Made by a program: the position numbers and the translations under genes. DNA of 25,084 nt, from IMG/VR virus record IMGVR_UViG_2778261154_000008; one strand, given 5' to 3'. This document shows, piece after piece, positions 2,960 to 22,191 of the stretch (the stretch's first letter is position 1; every line of letters begins with the position of its first letter). This DNA comes from a virus (taxonomy: Duplodnaviria > Heunggongvirae > Uroviricota > Caudoviricetes). Below the pieces are notes generated by a model that was given only the letters and a program-made list of their open reading frames with translations, did no database searches and was not told the DNA's origin.

Positions 2960-3492
2960 ACGGGCGGTGATGTCTTCTCATTGTCGCCGTCCTTATGAAT
3001 GTGTTCGCTGAATGATTTACCCTTGATTCTGACATCTTCAGTAAATTCACAGGGACCGACGAATTTCATTTGTTTACCGATAATATTCAGCAATTCGTCG
3101 GCGGTGAGATTTACCGTTTTCCCTGAAACGTCTACCTGTTCTCCTGTGATTTCAATGACGCCGTTTTCCTTCAGGGTGATGTGTGATTTGCCGTCCCGGT
3201 GATACACCCTGACATCGCCGGGGGACAGTCCTTTCGGGCGACATCGCTTGTCTTCCACCGCGATGGCAACCAGCCCGTCACGCCGTCCGCCAACGGCCAG
3301 CACAATGGCTTCAGAACCTTCCGGCGGAACGGACGTAAACCCGTAGTTCTGGAAGCGTTCCACGTCGTCATCGGTGGCATCTGCCAGCGTCTGAATTTGC
3401 AGGTTCTGCCGTGCCAGACCGTCAGACACCAGGCGGACAACAGCGCGGTCAACCATCAGTCGCAGGCGGCGGGCAATTGCGTTTAATCCCAT
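2956..3492 (-). CDS. Baseplate assembly protein V / central spike (Mu gp45-like)
   Basis: 178-aa ORF downstream of the Mu P-like gene; size and position typical of the gpV spike. Confidence 0.65.
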   Translation of the reverse strand: MGLNAIARRLRLMVDRAVVRLVSDGLARQNLQIQTLADATDDDVERFQNYGFTSVPPEGSEAIVLAVGGRRDGLVAIAVEDKRCRPKGLSPGDVRVYHRDGKSHITLKENGVIEITGEQVDVSGKTVNLTADELLNIIGKQMKFVGPCEFTEDVRIKGKSFSEHIHKDGDNEKTSPPV

Positions 3493-8469: not shown

Positions 8470-9945
8470 TTAAAGCTTGAACTGAATCAGGCCTGCCAGC
8501 ACACGCAGCTGGTTCACCAGATTCGGGTGGCAGATAAAGTTCAGGCGGTTTTTATCACTGCTGTCACGTGTCACCTGAAGCGTGTCTTTGTAATCGCTGA
8601 AGTTCTCCACAAGGCCCGCCGGGAGAAGTTCGGTCTGGCAGATATCCAGCAGTTCTGCGGTGCACAGCTTCGGCGTCATCACCGGCTGCCCCGCATCCAG
8701 CGAGTCCAGCACGTCATCATCCGCCAGCTTGTGGCGCGGATAACGGTTCGTGAAACGGTTCTTGATGATGTAACGGATACGGCCCAGCGTGGCGGGTGAC
8801 TGCACATCCAGGTACGACACATCCGCATCACCGTACTGGTTAACCCGGTACATGGTGATTTCGCGCTCGATGCAGACGTTATCCCCGGCGTCCACCATGT
8901 GCGTGGCAATGCCGTCATGCAGCAGCAGATTACGCTCCGGCATATCCCAGCGAACATTACGCGCAGGCGGCAGAATGCCGGTCAGGACCAGCGTCTGAAG
9001 CGGTCGCGCCGGGTCAATGGCAAGGTGATACGCTGCCGTTGCGCCGTATGACGCGGCCCACATCCACGCCGGGTGCGGTGACAGGTTGGTGCCGATACAG
9101 CTAATCAGCCAGTCATTGCGGGTTTCACCAAACGTGCCGGTTTCCCCGTGTGTGCCACGAAACGCCGTCCACAGCTGCGCTTCCATCATTTTGAGCGGCC
9201 CCCAGCGGTTCAGCAGTTCATCACGCAGGGTGTTCAGGCTTTTCGTGTCGGTGAACGGGGCGATGATATCGGTAAACCACTCCGGGCCGATGGCCGCAAC
9301 GGCGTCTGCCATTTCCGGTGTCCCGGTGCCGCCGGTAAACGCGGTTGCGGTCACCTTCACACCTGCCGGGAAGGCTTCACCGGTGTGGTAGTTCAGGCGA
9401 ACGTCGGCACCGTTGCCGGTGACGCCGTGCCAGTTCACGGTCAGCTCCACGGTATCCGTGGCATCATCCTTCACCGCAGCGGCCACCTGCGTGGCAGGCT
9501 TTTTCGTCACCGCATCAGCAATGGCTTTTGCAATGTTTTCCTTCGTATCCCCGGCGCTCACGCTCACCTGAACGGACACACCGTTAATCAGCAGTGCCAC
9601 CGTTCCGGCTTCGGTCGCTGTACCCAGCACGGTCAGCGTGGCTTTTGCGGCAGCGCCTTCAGGAGCGGCAACCGGCATCGCCCAGGTTTCCGTGTACGTG
9701 TTGGCACGACGCAGCATTTTGAGCATTTCAGCCAGCATCGACCCTTTGCCATAAAGCTGGTCTGCCTGGCTGTCACTGGTGATGCGGGTCAGTGACAGGG
9801 CGTCTGCGCTGCCGGACGATACCGCATGGCCCATGACCAGAATTTTTCGGCTTTGCGCGGATGCACCCTCCAGCGCCTGTGAATTGTCGATATCGATCCA
9901 GACAAGCGGGACGCGGATATCATCAGGAATGGAACCCAGCGACAT
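8470..9945 (-). CDS. Contractile tail sheath protein (Mu L-like)
   Basis: 491-aa ORF with the size and composition of a sheath protein, followed by the tube gene. Confidence 0.85.
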   Translation of the reverse strand: MSLGSIPDDIRVPLVWIDIDNSQALEGASAQSRKILVMGHAVSSGSADALSLTRITSDSQADQLYGKGSMLAEMLKMLRRANTYTETWAMPVAAPEGAAAKATLTVLGTATEAGTVALLINGVSVQVSVSAGDTKENIAKAIADAVTKKPATQVAAAVKDDATDTVELTVNWHGVTGNGADVRLNYHTGEAFPAGVKVTATAFTGGTGTPEMADAVAAIGPEWFTDIIAPFTDTKSLNTLRDELLNRWGPLKMMEAQLWTAFRGTHGETGTFGETRNDWLISCIGTNLSPHPAWMWAASYGATAAYHLAIDPARPLQTLVLTGILPPARNVRWDMPERNLLLHDGIATHMVDAGDNVCIEREITMYRVNQYGDADVSYLDVQSPATLGRIRYIIKNRFTNRYPRHKLADDDVLDSLDAGQPVMTPKLCTAELLDICQTELLPAGLVENFSDYKDTLQVTRDSSDKNRLNFICHPNLVNQLRVLAGLIQFKL

Positions 9946-12993: not shown

Positions 12994-13950
12994 TTACTCC
13001 TGTTTCGGTTTAGCGGCGAGGAACTCTTCCCCGGTAATACCCATGCTGCGACACATCGCCAGTTCGGCATCGGTCAGTGTCTGCGCGGGTTTATCCTTGC
13101 CCTGGCTGGGCTTGTCGTTGTTAACCAGCGGCTGTGCACCTTTGGTGTACTCCGCAAACTGTTTGCGGCCTTCTTCCGTGCGGCAGGTGGCAAGGAACAT
13201 GTCACGGTTTGCCGGGGCGACTTTTCCGGCCCCGATGGCCGCATCCACAAGCGCCTCGGCTTCCTTCTCTTCCAGTTGCTGAAGGCGTTTTTCTGCGGTT
13301 TCGGCACGGTTCAGTGCCAGATTGTGGGTTTCCACCGGCACAAACTTCGTCAGGTCAGGTGTCTGTGCGCGGTTCAGCGCCACCTGTTCGTTCTCCTGAA
13401 GTTGTTTAATGGCGGCCACGGTATCGTCCACCGTGGCGGATTCAGCCAGCCCAAGCAGGCCGGTGATTTGCACAGGTACTGTCATCGGGTTTTTCTCCGT
13501 ATTCAGTGCAGGAAAATCCAGGTTAGGTTTGTTGGTCAGCCCGACGCTGGACAGGCGCGTCACCGCACCGTCTGCGTCATGGAAAAACGCCGGGCTGTAA
13601 TAGCGGTAGCGGCGCTCGCTCAGCATCCACCGGGCGGACTCACTCCAGACAACACGCCCTTCAATGGTGCCGCTGTCCGTCACCCGCAGTGCTTCCACCC
13701 AGCCATACGCCGGAGCCTCTTCACCCCGCGGGCCTTTAATTTCGGTGGCATGTTCAATGTCCACCGGAATGTTGATGTCGGACGAACGGGCAACCACCTC
13801 ATGTGGATTGCGGTTCATCCACGTCCGGCCATCGCGCCCGGTGAACTCACCCGCAGGAACGAGTTCAAGCCATTCCGGCAGTTGAGCGGGTGTCAGCTCA
13901 GGGATGGGTTCTGGCAGGGAAAAACACAGCGCCAGCAGTTCCGGTTGCAT
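12994..13950 (-). CDS. Head maturation protease / scaffold (Mu I / gp32-like)
   Basis: 318-aa ORF with a C-terminal helical Ala/Glu/Lys-rich scaffold-like region; first gene after the F-I intergenic gap. Confidence 0.8.
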   Translation of the reverse strand: MQPELLALCFSLPEPIPELTPAQLPEWLELVPAGEFTGRDGRTWMNRNPHEVVARSSDINIPVDIEHATEIKGPRGEEAPAYGWVEALRVTDSGTIEGRVVWSESARWMLSERRYRYYSPAFFHDADGAVTRLSSVGLTNKPNLDFPALNTEKNPMTVPVQITGLLGLAESATVDDTVAAIKQLQENEQVALNRAQTPDLTKFVPVETHNLALNRAETAEKRLQQLEEKEAEALVDAAIGAGKVAPANRDMFLATCRTEEGRKQFAEYTKGAQPLVNNDKPSQGKDKPAQTLTDAELAMCRSMGITGEEFLAAKPKQE

Positions 13951-13999
13951 GTCAGTCTCCGTCGTCTGGGGTTACCGACGGTCAGTATGCGGAAGGCAG

Positions 14000-14025
14000 A
14001 AAAAAAGCCGGATTTACCGGCTTCA
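14000..14025 (-). terminator. Exact second copy of the same 26-bp hairpin plus T-tract element, ~50 nt upstream of the protease/scaffold gene
   Basis: aaaaaaagccggatttaccggcttca is identical at 14000-14025 and 21712-21737; flanks differ. Position matches where Mu has its late promoter for gene I. Confidence 0.5.
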
Positions 14026-14043
14026 CTGAAAACGGGGAAATAC

Positions 14044-14066
14044 CCCCTTCAAAACCCCTTCAAAAA
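14044..14066. repeat. Tandem direct repeat CCCCTTCAAAA x2 (third, degenerate copy GCTTCAAAAAA at 14077-14087) in the F-I intergenic region
   Basis: Read directly from the sequence; minus-strand form TTTTGAAGGGG. The TGAAG core also occurs in both copies of the 26-bp element and in the endolysin-leader hairpin. Confidence 0.4.
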
Positions 14067-14113
14067 CGCCACAGACGCTTCAAAAAAGCCAGGGTGTACA
14101 TTCATGCCATCAG

Positions 14114-14140
14114 AATAAAAAACGCGTTTCTGATGCGTTT
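14114..14140 (-). terminator. Candidate intrinsic terminator just downstream of the head morphogenesis gene
   Basis: Minus-strand RNA AAACGC-AUCAGAAAC-GCGUUU-UUUAUU, starting ~25 nt after the stop at 14165; the stem is short and AU-rich, so the call is weak. Confidence 0.3.
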
Positions 14141-21068: not shown

Positions 21069-21656
21069 TCATCCCCGCGTGACGGACGACACGTTGTCGA
21101 TAATTTCCAGACAGGCGTCGGTCACTTTCTCCATGCGGTTAAACCAGCCGTTCAGGTATTTGCCCTGGGCAGGTTTGGATTTGATGATGTCGGCATAAAA
21201 GCGGGAACGACGGACAATGCAGCGGGTCAGCAACCAGTCCGGGGTGGACAGGCTCACTGCCTTACGGGTACGCGGACCGATGATGCCGTCAGCATCCACA
21301 TCAGCGGCTTCCTGCAAAATCCTGATAGCTTTTTTAACGCCATGCTGAACCGCCGCATCGAACACAAACATCGCCACGCCATCAGGCCACTGGTCACATC
21401 CGGCAGGCAGCCAGTAATCGCGCCAGTAAATCTGCGCGACCTGTTCGCGGGTTAAATCCCTGATGCGGGTATCCGGTTTACCGTCGCCGCTGACATCGGT
21501 TTTGCCGTCAATCACACCGTCGCGGCGGTCAGAAATGCCGTATCTGGTTTCGCCGCCACGGTCAGTGGGGTCATTGACATAGACGCCTTCGATATCGGGA
21601 CGCAGAATAAAATTCAGCGCATACTCAAAGGCCGGGGAGAATTTTTGATTTTCCAT
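21069..21656 (-). CDS. Endolysin, GH108-type muramidase with C-terminal peptidoglycan-binding domain
   Basis: 195-aa ORF; N-terminal FEYALNF...EGVYVNDPTDRGGETRYGIS matches the GH108 signature as I recall it; C-terminal DGIIGPRTRKAV resembles a PG-binding domain. No N-terminal hydrophobic/SAR segment. AGGTG RBS. Confidence 0.8.
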   Translation of the reverse strand: MENQKFSPAFEYALNFILRPDIEGVYVNDPTDRGGETRYGISDRRDGVIDGKTDVSGDGKPDTRIRDLTREQVAQIYWRDYWLPAGCDQWPDGVAMFVFDAAVQHGVKKAIRILQEAADVDADGIIGPRTRKAVSLSTPDWLLTRCIVRRSRFYADIIKSKPAQGKYLNGWFNRMEKVTDACLEIIDNVSSVTRG

Positions 21657-21667
21657 AAAAGCACCTG

Positions 21668-21696
21668 TGAAGCAGATTTAAACGTGGTCTGCTTCA
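21668..21696 (-). promoter_or_regulatory. 9-bp perfect inverted repeat in the endolysin leader, immediately upstream of its RBS
   Basis: tgaagcaga-N11-tctgcttca; on the mRNA the hairpin ends 12 nt before the ATG, next to AGGUG. Shares the TGAAGC motif with the 26-bp element. Confidence 0.4.
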
Positions 21697-21711
21697 TGGT
21701 GCCGGAGGCAT

Positions 21712-21737
21712 AAAAAAAGCCGGATTTACCGGCTTCA
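21712..21737 (-). terminator. Hairpin plus T-tract between the Mor/C gene and the lysis operon: intrinsic terminator and/or late-promoter activator site (copy 2 of a 26-bp repeat)
   Basis: Minus-strand RNA reads UGAAGCCGG-UAAAU-CCGGCUU-UUUUUUA: 7-bp GC-rich stem, 5-nt loop, U7. Begins 4 nt after the Mor/C stop and lies ~55 nt upstream of the endolysin ATG. Confidence 0.55.
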
Positions 21738-21741
21738 TTGA

Positions 21742-22191
21742 TTAAGGACGTCGTGGCGGACGACGAACGGGGTGAGGCAGGTTCGGGGAGTGGTAAAACA
21801 AATCCGGCTGGTATTTATTACACTCCAGACGCCGCATCCGCTTGATGGCCTTGTAGACGGTTTTATACGTCACCCCGTAACGCTGAACCAGTTCAGGAAT
21901 ATTATGGCCGTTAAAATCACGCCAGATACGCATATCCCGGACAAGATTCTCCAGAATATTCCCCCTCGGAACATAAACCTGCATCCCGCCGATATAGCGA
22001 CAAATCGCCACAACCAGCTCAAGGGAATGGGCAGGGTCTGCGCCAATCCGGGCCAGCTCTTTACGCAGCAGTGCGTTCAGTTCAGAAAGTAACGCCGGAT
22101 AAGCCGTGTTTTCCTGGTAATCGTTAAGGTATTCCAGAACGCTGTCGTCCCGGAAGTCTTCGAATAAATCCTGCTCTTTCATCTGTTTCAT
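21742..22191 (-). CDS. Mor/C-family transcriptional activator of middle/late genes
   Basis: 149-aa ORF; the segment DPAHSLELVVAICRYIGGMQVYVPRG...YGVTYKTVYKAIKRMRR closely resembles the Mu Mor/C family as I recall it; ATGA overlap with gemA; sits directly upstream of the lysis operon. Confidence 0.75.
   Translation of the reverse strand: MKQMKEQDLFEDFRDDSVLEYLNDYQENTAYPALLSELNALLRKELARIGADPAHSLELVVAICRYIGGMQVYVPRGNILENLVRDMRIWRDFNGHNIPELVQRYGVTYKTVYKAIKRMRRLECNKYQPDLFYHSPNLPHPVRRPPRRP

What the first reader, a model, noticed from the sequence alone, without database searches (positions are those of the whole stretch)
21712..21737. Identical 26-bp hairpin-plus-T-tract element at two late-operon boundaries (Mor/C-to-lys and F-to-I)
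aaaaaaagccggatttaccggcttca occurs exactly twice (14000-14025 and 21712-21737), both times on the coding strand as UGAAGCCGG-UAAAU-CCGGCUU-U7, 50-55 nt upstream of the first gene of a late transcription unit (endolysin; protease/scaffold). In Mu the C activator drives four late promoters (Plys, PI, PP, Pmom), and these two positions match Plys and PI. The element therefore could be an intrinsic terminator insulating each late operon, the dyad recognition site of the Mor/C-family activator, or both. Exact conservation of a 26-mer inside an otherwise diverged phage argues for sequence-specific recognition, not just RNA folding.
Basis: partly seen in the sequence, partly recalled or inferred. Interest (0 to 1): 0.6.

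Follow-up and report, generated by a model that had tools for sequence, protein, structure and literature searches.

The report
Mor-activated promoter with built-in terminator
The repeated 26-base hairpin is the core of a phage-Mu "middle promoter" type module, a transcription terminator whose left half doubles as the binding site of the phage activator Mor, placed here in front of the lysis genes and the head genes of a Mu-like E. coli prophage that lacks Mu's second activator C; it is a clear new instance of a known design, not a new kind of element.

Summary
The 26-mer occurs exactly twice (14000-14025 and 21712-21737) on the coding (minus) strand, 49 and 55 nt upstream of the protease/scaffold gene I and the GH108 endolysin gene.

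It aligns without gaps to the footprinted Mor-dependent middle promoter Pm of phage Mu. Mu has AGTAA-AGCCGG-TTAAT followed by CCGGC-T7; the window has A(A/G)TGA-AGCCGG-TAAAT followed by CCGGC-T7. A -10 hexamer sits at the same distance.

The 149-aa activator is 61% identical to Mu Mor and 32% to Mu C. The prophage has no C gene and no C-type box.

By transfer from Mu Pm, the Mor box is the 5 nt before the stem, the left arm and the loop. It is not the hairpin's own dyad.

In 60 related phage contigs, all 35 distinct lys sites keep the perfect hairpin and T-run. Only 10 of 30 distinct I sites keep both, yet all keep the Mor box and a -10.

A third, hairpin-less Mor box lies inside the gp45 baseplate gene. 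The same hairpin also occurs in unrelated bacteria in terminator-like context.

Verdict: a dual terminator and Mor-promoter module. Its function is inferred and was not tested. Also seen: an anti-RBS fold-back expected to silence read-through transcripts.

The parts
21712..21737 (-). lys-proximal copy of the 26-mer (hairpin plus T7)
   Evidence: Exact match. Stem-loop 21736-21716 and T-run 21718-21712.
14000..14025 (-). I-proximal copy of the 26-mer (hairpin plus T7)
   Evidence: Exact match. Stem-loop 14024-14004 and T-run 14006-14000.
21724..21739 (-). Predicted Mor box of the lys promoter, AATGA-AGCCGG-TAAAT (-51..-36)
   Evidence: Gapless alignment to Mu Pm; 12 of 16 positions identical to Mu's box. 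Mor dyad positions taken from PMC4287176 and PMC4390567. PWM score 28.5, against a maximum of 18.5 in 200 shuffles.
14012..14027 (-). Predicted Mor box of the I promoter, AGTGA-AGCCGG-TAAAT (-51..-36)
   Evidence: 13 of 16 positions identical to Mu's box; PWM score 28.4.
21696..21701 (-). Predicted -10 hexamer CACCAT of the lys promoter; predicted +1 near 21688
   Evidence: Same distance from the box as TATCCT in Mu Pm. Relatives carry an nAnnnT hexamer at the same distance, +/-1 nt.
13984..13989 (-). Predicted -10 hexamer CATACT of the I promoter; predicted +1 near 13976
21742..22191 (-). Gene for the 149-aa Mor orthologue, the presumed activator
   Evidence: Pfam Mor E=4e-30. 61% identical to Mu Mor and 32% to Mu C. 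It is the only Mor/C-family gene in the prophage.
21069..21656 (-). GH108 endolysin, first gene downstream of copy 2
   Evidence: Pfam Glyco_hydro_108 plus PG_binding_3.
12994..13950 (-). Mu-like I protease/scaffold, first gene downstream of copy 1
   Evidence: Pfam Mu-like_Pro E=6e-45.
3109..3124 (-). Third, hairpin-less Mor box (AGGGA-AAACGG-TAAAT) inside the gp45 baseplate gene, with TATTAT at 3085-3080
   Evidence: PWM score 25.9; next best site in the prophage 12.1; maximum in 200 shuffles 18.5. Sequence. Kept at synonymous codon positions in relatives.
21657..21711 (-). lys leader: the pre-+1 segment (GGCACC, 21703-21698) pairs with the SD region (GGUGCU) around an inner hairpin

Best explanation
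Each copy is a composite module of the phage Mu Pm type. Read as RNA coming from upstream, the 8-bp GC-rich hairpin plus U7 is a Rho-independent terminator. At 21712-21737 it would end the early, mor-containing transcript. At 14000-14025 it would end the lys-to-F late transcript.

Read as DNA, the 5 nt before the stem, the left arm and the loop form the 16-bp Mor box (-51..-36). The prophage's single Mor-family activator would bind there and recruit sigma-70 RNA polymerase to a promoter with a weak -10 (CACCAT or CATACT at -13..-8) and no -35. Transcription would restart about 37 nt downstream of the loop, giving 32-nt and 26-nt leaders for lys and I.

The prophage has no C gene. Mor would therefore drive the late operons directly (a two-tier cascade) from at least two such modules, and probably from a third, terminator-less Mor box inside the baseplate gene gp45.

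Shown here: the sequence homology to the footprinted Mu site, the comparative conservation pattern and the predicted fold. Inferred: actual Mor binding, the start sites and the termination.
For: - **Homology to Mu Pm.** Mu's DNA after mor reads CAGTAAAGCCGGTTAATCCGGCTTTTTTTACGTCCTCAATATCCT. GenBank annotates there both a predicted terminator (9179-9200) and the Mor-activated middle promoter (9163-9233). The window copies align to it without gaps from -53 to -8 and differ by one loop base within the hairpin.
- **Published Mor site.** The Mor dyad is at -51..-36, centred at -43.5, with two 5-bp repeats and a G/C-rich 6-bp spacer. The footprint is -56..-36, with G, T, A, A, A at -57..-53 (PMC4390567, PMC4287176). 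Only one register on the Mu sequence fits these facts.
- **Activator identity.** 61% identical to Mu Mor, 32% to Mu C. It is the only Mor/C gene in the prophage and in 60 related contigs.
- **Conservation in relatives.** All 35 distinct lys sites keep the perfect stem and T-run. Of 30 distinct I sites, 16 keep the full stem, 13 the T-run and 10 both. All I sites keep A-51, G-48, A-47, A-46, C-43, G-42, G-41, T-40, A-38, A-37 and T-36, and a -10 at +/-1 nt spacing.
- **Position.** Where an extra ORF separates mor from lys, the element stays next to lys.
- **Third box.** A Mor box without hairpin scores 25.9, against a shuffle maximum of 18.5.
- **Terminator side.** Canonical geometry. The identical 22-mer lies in non-Mu contexts with A-rich 5' flanks in unrelated bacteria.
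- **Start site.** RBS-occluding pairing that begins upstream of the predicted +1 is conserved, including at Mu's published +1 (as mapped here on the Mu sequence). This fits a start site inside the structure.
Against: - No transcript, binding or reporter data exist for this prophage.
- The -10 hexamers are weak (3/6 and 4/6 matches to TATAAT).
- The left half-site differs from Mu's (G instead of A at -48 in all 43 distinct 24-nt sites in the tally), and two residues at the start of the recognition helix differ from Mu Mor. Specificity is therefore presumed, not proven.
- The mapping of Mor positions onto the Mu sequence was reconstructed from numbers given in text, because the figures are not held.
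- That Mu's hairpin really terminates early transcripts rests on a TransTermHP annotation and on my recollection of the 't9.2' terminator, which I could not verify.
Confidence: 0.8

Rival explanations
1. The two copies are ordinary intrinsic terminators and nothing more. The late promoters lie elsewhere, or late genes are expressed by read-through.
For: Canonical hairpin plus U7. The lys copy starts 4 nt after the mor stop codon. The identical 22-mer occurs in dozens of unrelated genomes in non-Mu contexts that look like ordinary terminators.
Against: - Unrelated copies have A-rich 5' flanks. All Mu-like copies carry CA(A/G)TG-type flanks and an nAnnnT hexamer at a fixed distance.
- At I sites the terminator features decay while the Mor box stays invariant.
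- A third box has no hairpin.
- No sigma-70 consensus promoter lies in the 49-55 nt before either gene.
- The element is homologous to a footprinted promoter.
Confidence: 0.1
2. The hairpin's own perfect dyad (AAGCCGG-N5-CCGGCTT) is the activator's recognition site, as at a C-type late promoter.
For: The dyad is perfect, and the promoter positions match Mu Plys and PI. Some relatives show compensatory changes that keep the stem without a T-run, for example L122 AAGGCGG..CCGCCTT. Bases just downstream of the Mor dyad are reported to be needed for activation (PMC2582627).
Against: - The Mu Mor dyad and footprint end at -36, that is, at the loop (PMC4287176).
- The hairpin centre would lie at about -38, not -43.5.
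- 14 of 30 distinct I sites lack a full stem.
- The third box has no right arm.
- There is no TTAT-N5-6-ATAA box and no C gene.
Confidence: 0.06
3. The identity of the two copies is a neutral by-product of recent duplication or gene conversion, with no function at the I site.
For: The 42-nt similarity ends abruptly. Related phages show a patchy distribution of exact versus diverged I-site copies, which suggests mosaic exchange.
Against: Both copies are unchanged in more than 20 contigs whose flanking genes are 89-100% identical. The 19-mer core is exact in lineages with only about 60% protein identity. Diverged I sites still keep every invariant Mor-box position.
Confidence: 0.04

Closest known systems
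Phage Mu middle promoter Pm, with the hairpin after mor (also in D108, SfMu and Yersinia phage vB_YpM_5)
   Same: Same 16-bp box layout, with 12-13 of 16 bases identical. Same left arm, right arm and T7 tract. Same box-to-(-10) spacing. It lies directly downstream of the mor-containing early region. The cognate activator is 61% identical. The pre-+1 anti-RBS pairing is also present.
   Different: In Mu there is one copy, and it drives a middle operon (gp18-gp20 and C). Here there are two full copies plus one hairpin-less box, and they drive the late lysis, head and probably baseplate genes directly. Position -48 is G instead of A, and the loop is TAAAT instead of TTAAT.
[quoted passage not shown]
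   Same: Same genomic positions (before lys, before I, and an intragenic tail promoter). Same logic of a terminator followed at once by an activator-dependent promoter lacking a -35.
   Different: Different box (TTAT-N5-6-ATAA, PMC12867686) and a different activator (C), both absent here. Mu PP lies in gene N, whereas the third box here lies in gp45. No Mor box was found before com/mom.
C-less Mu-like phages of Pasteurellaceae (3927AP2, phiMhaMu2, SuMu)
   Same: A GH108 lys gene lies immediately after mor and there is no C gene. This was already noted in PMC4553209.
   Different: That paper describes gene order only, and no promoter or terminator element was defined. I did not examine those genomes.
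Fold-back inhibition of IS10/IS50 transposase translation (from my own knowledge)
   Same: Sequence upstream of the element's own start site pairs with the ribosome-binding site. Only transcripts that begin at the proper promoter would be translatable.
   Different: A phage late-gene context, combined with a terminator and an activator site. Not tested experimentally.

Membership tests
Mu Pm-type (Mor-dependent) promoter | 16-bp imperfect dyad (5-bp repeats plus a G/C-rich 6-bp spacer) centred near -43.5 | tested here: met
   AATGA-AGCCGG-TAAAT and AGTGA-AGCCGG-TAAAT align without gaps to Mu AGTAA-AGCCGG-TTAAT. Positions are from PMC4287176 and PMC4390567.
Mu Pm-type (Mor-dependent) promoter | Recognisable -10 hexamer at the Mu spacing, and no -35 hexamer | tested here: met
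   CACCAT and CATACT sit at -13..-8, and relatives keep an nAnnnT hexamer at this spacing. The -35 region reads TCCGGC. No sigma-70 consensus promoter was found there.
Mu Pm-type (Mor-dependent) promoter | A/T-rich proximal UP subsite at -57..-52 | tested here: inconclusive
   The window has TTAATC (lys) and GTTTTC (I), against GTAAAC in Mu. Both are A/T-rich, but the critical A-55 and A-54 are kept only at lys (PMC4390567).
Mu Pm-type (Mor-dependent) promoter | A cognate Mor protein is encoded by the same phage | tested here: met
   Pfam Mor E=4e-30; 61% identity to Mu Mor.
Mu Pm-type (Mor-dependent) promoter | Transcription depends on Mor, and Mor footprints the box | not testable with these tools
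   Needs EMSA or footprinting, reporter fusions and TSS mapping.
Rho-independent terminator | G+C-rich stem, short loop and a following U-run | tested here: met
   8-bp stem (5 G-C pairs), 5-nt loop and U7. The hairpin is about -12.6 kcal/mol.
Rho-independent terminator | Transcript 3' ends at the U-run | not testable with these tools
   Needs Term-seq or 3'-RACE. Indirect support: the identical 22-mer sits in non-Mu, terminator-like contexts in unrelated bacteria.
Mu C-dependent late promoter | TTAT-N5-6-ATAA C box at about -43.5 | tested here: not met
   No match anywhere in the window.
Mu C-dependent late promoter | A C activator gene is present | tested here: not met
   There is a single Mor/C-family locus in the prophage and in 60 relatives, and it is closer to Mor than to C.

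The most novel reading that the evidence does not exclude
The module may be a three-layer insulator conserved from Mu Pm to its C-less relatives. The layers are a terminator, an activator box built into the terminator's left half, and a pre-+1 'anti-RBS' segment. Any transcript that leaks through from the early operon would fold back and hide the lys (or I) ribosome-binding site. Only RNA started at the Mor-dependent +1 would be translated. A corollary: Mu's Pm would be the orthologue of the ancestral Mor-dependent lys promoter. Mu's three-tier cascade would then have arisen by inserting the gp18-C operon behind it and rewiring the late promoters to C.
Probability: 0.45. Interest if true: 0.55.

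Novelty: new member of a known kind. Interest (0 to 1): 0.38.

Why it matters
It gives concrete, testable promoter, terminator and start-site coordinates for a Mu-like prophage family found in about 1% of complete E. coli genomes (49 of 5426) and in several other Enterobacterales genera among the genome-scan hits.

It suggests how a phage without C could run its late programme with Mor alone. It also offers a natural mutational series for separating activator binding from termination in an overlapping element: I sites with and without the right arm and T-run, and one intragenic box.

The fold-back observation, if confirmed, would add a translational fail-safe to the textbook Mu transcription cascade.

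Tried and rejected
- **C-type late promoter.** Rejected: no TTAT-N5-6-ATAA box and no C gene.
- **Further full copies of the 26-mer** (up to 3 mismatches), or of GCCGG-N5-CCGGC, in the whole prophage: none found.
- **Mor box before com/mom.** None. The region has only a TAAAT and a TATCCT at Pm-like spacing, plus a GATC cluster.
- **SD-only unpaired probability** as a test of fold-back. It gave mixed results for I and the opposite of the prediction for lys. I replaced it with the opening energy of the whole RBS window, with shuffle controls.
- **RNAalifold on a MAFFT alignment of lys leaders.** It predicted no pairs, because the leaders are too diverged to align by sequence.
- **Literature.** Artsimovitch & Howe 1996 and Mathee & Howe 1990 are not held. 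A search for 't9.2' found nothing. The SfMu paper has nothing on terminators or promoters. The Pm sequence is not printed in the text of the held papers, so I rebuilt the register from stated base identities.
- **REP-like or mobile repeat.** Rejected: only two copies, both at conserved operon boundaries.

Full report
**Observation.** The 26-mer AAAAAAAGCCGGATTTACCGGCTTCA is present exactly twice, at 14000-14025 and 21712-21737. There are no further matches at up to 3 mismatches and none in 100 shuffles. The 48-kb region that holds the whole prophage gives the same two hits. All genes run on the minus strand. On that strand the element is an 8-bp stem, a 5-nt loop and U7. The MFE structures of the 46-nt segments around it are -13 to -16 kcal/mol, and the hairpin itself is about -12.6 kcal/mol. 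The similarity extends to 42 nt at 90% identity. The lys-proximal 26-mer starts 4 nt after the stop codon of a Mor-family gene. Its T-run ends 55 nt before the ATG of a GH108 endolysin. The other copy lies in the 215-nt gap between a Mu-F-like gene and the Mu-I-like protease. Its T-run ends 49 nt before that ATG.

**Source.** The window is identical to a Mu-like prophage of E. coli FDAARGOS_943, and 49 of 5426 complete E. coli genomes carry relatives. Along the direction of transcription the gene order is: transposase genes A and B, gam, gemA, mor, lys, terminase, portal, F, I, T, tail genes, baseplate genes, fibres, com and mom.

**What it is.** Phage Mu's own sequence after mor reads GTAAAC AGTAA AGCCGG TTAAT CCGGC TTTTTTT ACGTCCTCAA TATCCT. 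GenBank AF083977 annotates there a predicted terminator (9179-9200) nested inside the Mor-activated middle promoter Pm (9163-9233). The two window copies align to it without gaps from about -53 to -8. Within the hairpin they differ by one loop base. Yersinia phage vB_YpM_5, a Muvirus with C, has the Mu form.

**Register of the Mor box.** Published work places the Mor dyad at -51..-36, centred at -43.5. It has two 5-bp inverted repeats and a G/C-rich hexanucleotide spacer. The Mor footprint is -56..-36, and the bases at -57..-53 are G, T, A, A, A (PMC4390567, PMC4287176). Only one register on the Mu sequence satisfies all of this:
- AGTAA at -51..-47
- AGCCGG at -46..-41
- TTAAT at -40..-36
- TATCCT at -13..-8
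- +1 at Mu 9224

The Mor box is therefore the 5 nt before the stem, the left arm and the loop. The hairpin's own centre lies about 6 bp further downstream. The figures of these papers are not held, so this register is my reconstruction.

**Transfer to the window.**

| Promoter | Mor box | -10 hexamer | Predicted +1 |
|---|---|---|---|
| lys | 21739-21724, AATGA-AGCCGG-TAAAT | 21701-21696, CACCAT | about 21688 |
| I | 14027-14012, AGTGA-AGCCGG-TAAAT | 13989-13984, CATACT | about 13976 |

**The activator.** The 149-aa protein is 61% identical to Mu Mor and 32% to Mu C. It is the only Mor/C-family locus in the prophage and in each of 60 related viral contigs. No C-type box (TTAT-N5-6-ATAA, PMC12867686) occurs anywhere in the window. 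The absence of C and the adjacency of mor and lys were already noted for Pasteurellaceae Mu-like phages (PMC4553209).

**Comparative test.** An exact scan for the 19-mer core found 66 viral stretches. Nearly all lie either between mor and lys or between F and I. That sample was selected by the sequence itself, so I also took a sample through the Mor protein. In that sample:
- All 35 distinct lys-upstream sequences keep a full stem and a T-run. The loop is TAAAT or TTAAT.
- Of 30 distinct I-upstream sequences, 16 keep a full stem, 13 a T-run and 10 both.
- Every I site keeps A-51, G-48, A-47, A-46, C-43, G-42, G-41, T-40, A-38, A-37 and T-36.
- An nAnnnT hexamer follows at the Mu distance, +/-1 nt (CACCAT, CAAAAT, TAAATT, CACTAT, CATACT, GACACT, CACACT).
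- Where an extra ORF separates mor from lys, the element stays next to lys.

The promoter features are thus the common denominator. The terminator features are universal only at the boundary between early and late genes. That is where leakage into lysis genes would be expected to be most harmful.

**Third site.** A position weight matrix of the box (-52..-35) gave these scores:
- lys site: 28.5
- I site: 28.4
- A third minus-strand site at 3125-3108, inside the gp45 baseplate gene: 25.9
- Next best site in the prophage: 12.1
- Maximum in 200 dinucleotide shuffles: 18.5
- Mu Pm itself: 22.8

The third site has no right arm and no T-run, and TATTAT lies at -12..-7 (3085-3080). In relatives whose gp45 protein is 63-70% identical to the window's, the box survives at synonymous codon positions as GGG AAR nnG GTW AAT. 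Mu's PP promoter is likewise intragenic, inside gene N.

**Terminator side.** The geometry is canonical. The identical 22-mer occurs in at least 80 species genomes. About 17 are Enterobacterales with mor/lys or F/I neighbours and CA(A/G)TG-type 5' flanks. The rest are unrelated bacteria (Bacteroidota, Spirochaetes, Pantoea housekeeping loci) with A-rich 5' flanks, which look like ordinary terminators. Exact conservation of the hairpin is therefore not in itself evidence of protein recognition; the flanks are. That Mu's hairpin terminates early transcripts rests on the TransTermHP annotation and on my memory of 't9.2', which I could not verify.

**Mechanism proposed.** Early transcripts stop at the lys-proximal hairpin. 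Once Mor accumulates, it binds the box that overlaps the terminator's left half and starts late transcription about 37 nt downstream of the loop. The same module restarts transcription before I, and a bare box probably boosts the baseplate and fibre genes. Binding, start sites and termination are inferred, not shown.

**Noticed: fold-back in the leaders.** RNA that reads through from upstream folds so that the segment before +1 pairs with the SD or start-codon region around an inner hairpin. In the window the pairing is GGCACC with GGUGCU; elsewhere it is, for example, AUGCCUGC with GCAGGCAU. I measured the energy needed to open the RBS window (-13..+3 around the start codon) in 46 distinct lys leaders:
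- Read-through RNA: mean 14.2 kcal/mol.
- RNA starting at the predicted +1: mean 6.8 kcal/mol.
- Upstream segment shuffled: mean 7.6 kcal/mol.
- Read-through exceeded the +1 value in 46 of 46 leaders.
- In 91% of leaders, at most 1 of 30 shuffles reached the observed value.

The arm sequences differ between lineages in a compensatory way, for example CCGGCA/UGCC, UCGGCA/UGCCGA and CCGGAA/UUCCGG. Sliding the 5' end shows the drop between -7 and -1. This includes Mu Pm at its published start as mapped here, where the energy falls from 12.0 to 2.5 kcal/mol. Distant I leaders behave the same way (12-19 against 3-4 kcal/mol). The window's own I leader does not (7.9 against 6.0; shuffles 7.9). This resembles IS10-type fold-back inhibition (my own knowledge). 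It also independently fits a start site inside the structure.

**Comparison and novelty.** By every feature that could be tested, the element is a member of the Mu Pm (Mor-dependent) promoter kind with its embedded terminator. It is not a member of the C-dependent late promoters. What differs from Mu is deployment: two full copies and one bare box driving late operons in a C-less, two-tier cascade. I rate it a new member of a known kind, of moderate interest. The fold-back layer and the inference that Mu's Pm is orthologous to an ancestral Mor-dependent lys promoter are the most novel readings left open.

Noticed in passing
window 3109-3124 (-), with TATTAT at 3080-3085: A hairpin-less Mor box lies inside the gp45 baseplate gene. 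Its PWM score is 25.9, against a shuffle maximum of 18.5. The box is kept at synonymous codon positions in relatives. It is a candidate intragenic late promoter, analogous to Mu PP, which lies inside gene N.
   Followed up: partly
window 21657-21711 (-); relatives L071-L128; Mu L070 1197-1251: Sequence upstream of the predicted +1 pairs with the SD or start-codon region around an inner hairpin. The RBS opening energy is about 14 kcal/mol in read-through RNA and about 6-7 kcal/mol in RNA from +1 or in shuffled controls. Arm changes between lineages are compensatory. The same step occurs at Mu Pm's published +1 as mapped here.
   Followed up: partly
window 13951-13983 (-): The I leader hairpin CCGUCG...CGACGG straddles the predicted +1. 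In this phage it barely occludes the RBS (7.9 vs 6.0 kcal/mol). In distant relatives a 9-bp version (CUGUCCGUC/GACGGACAG) occludes it strongly.
   Followed up: partly
window 14029-14090 (-): Three TTTT(T)GAAG(G/C)G repeats (TGAAG at 14082, 14062 and 14051) and a GGGGGTATTTCCCC mini-palindrome lie upstream of the I-site box, which itself contains TGAAG. Relatives and Mu have similar TTTTAAAC(G/C)G motifs. In Mu the equivalent G-I gap holds the annotated strong gyrase cut site. Possible roles are extra Mor contacts or a gyrase-site arm.
   Followed up: no
window 14117-14140 (-): A second, weak terminator-like hairpin (AAACGC-N9-GCGTTT followed by a T-run) lies about 25 nt after the F stop codon and about 110 nt upstream of the strong hairpin.
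   Followed up: no
window 21742-21800 (-), C-terminus of the 149-aa protein: The Mor orthologue ends ...KYQPDLFYHSPNLP. It therefore carries the QPDLF motif reported as MuC's C-terminal beta-clamp-binding motif (PMC12867686), whereas Mu Mor ends QPSLL. This fits a Mor that also does C's late-gene job.
   Followed up: partly
L003 7083-7215 (-), outside the window (upstream of com/mom): The prophage has com and mom (Pfam Mom E=1e-75). Upstream of com there is no Mor box. There is only a TAAAT 23 nt before a TATCCT hexamer, preceded by a palindrome containing two GATC sites, reminiscent of the Dam/OxyR region of Mu Pmom. How mom is activated without C is unexplained.
   Followed up: partly
L176, L178, L179, L197, L223, L225, L250 (Pantoea, Enterobacter and a Plautia stali symbiont): The identical hairpin with a TTAAT loop sits upstream of a conserved TTGCCTTGCCGCGCGCCCCTGATTCGCGTAAAA sequence in non-prophage context. 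This is a host locus that uses the same sequence, apparently as a terminator.
   Followed up: no
L082-L128 (relatives), between mor and lys: Many relatives carry an extra stretch of about 0.5-0.6 kb (one ORF) between mor and lys. The promoter-terminator module then follows that ORF instead of mor.
   Followed up: no
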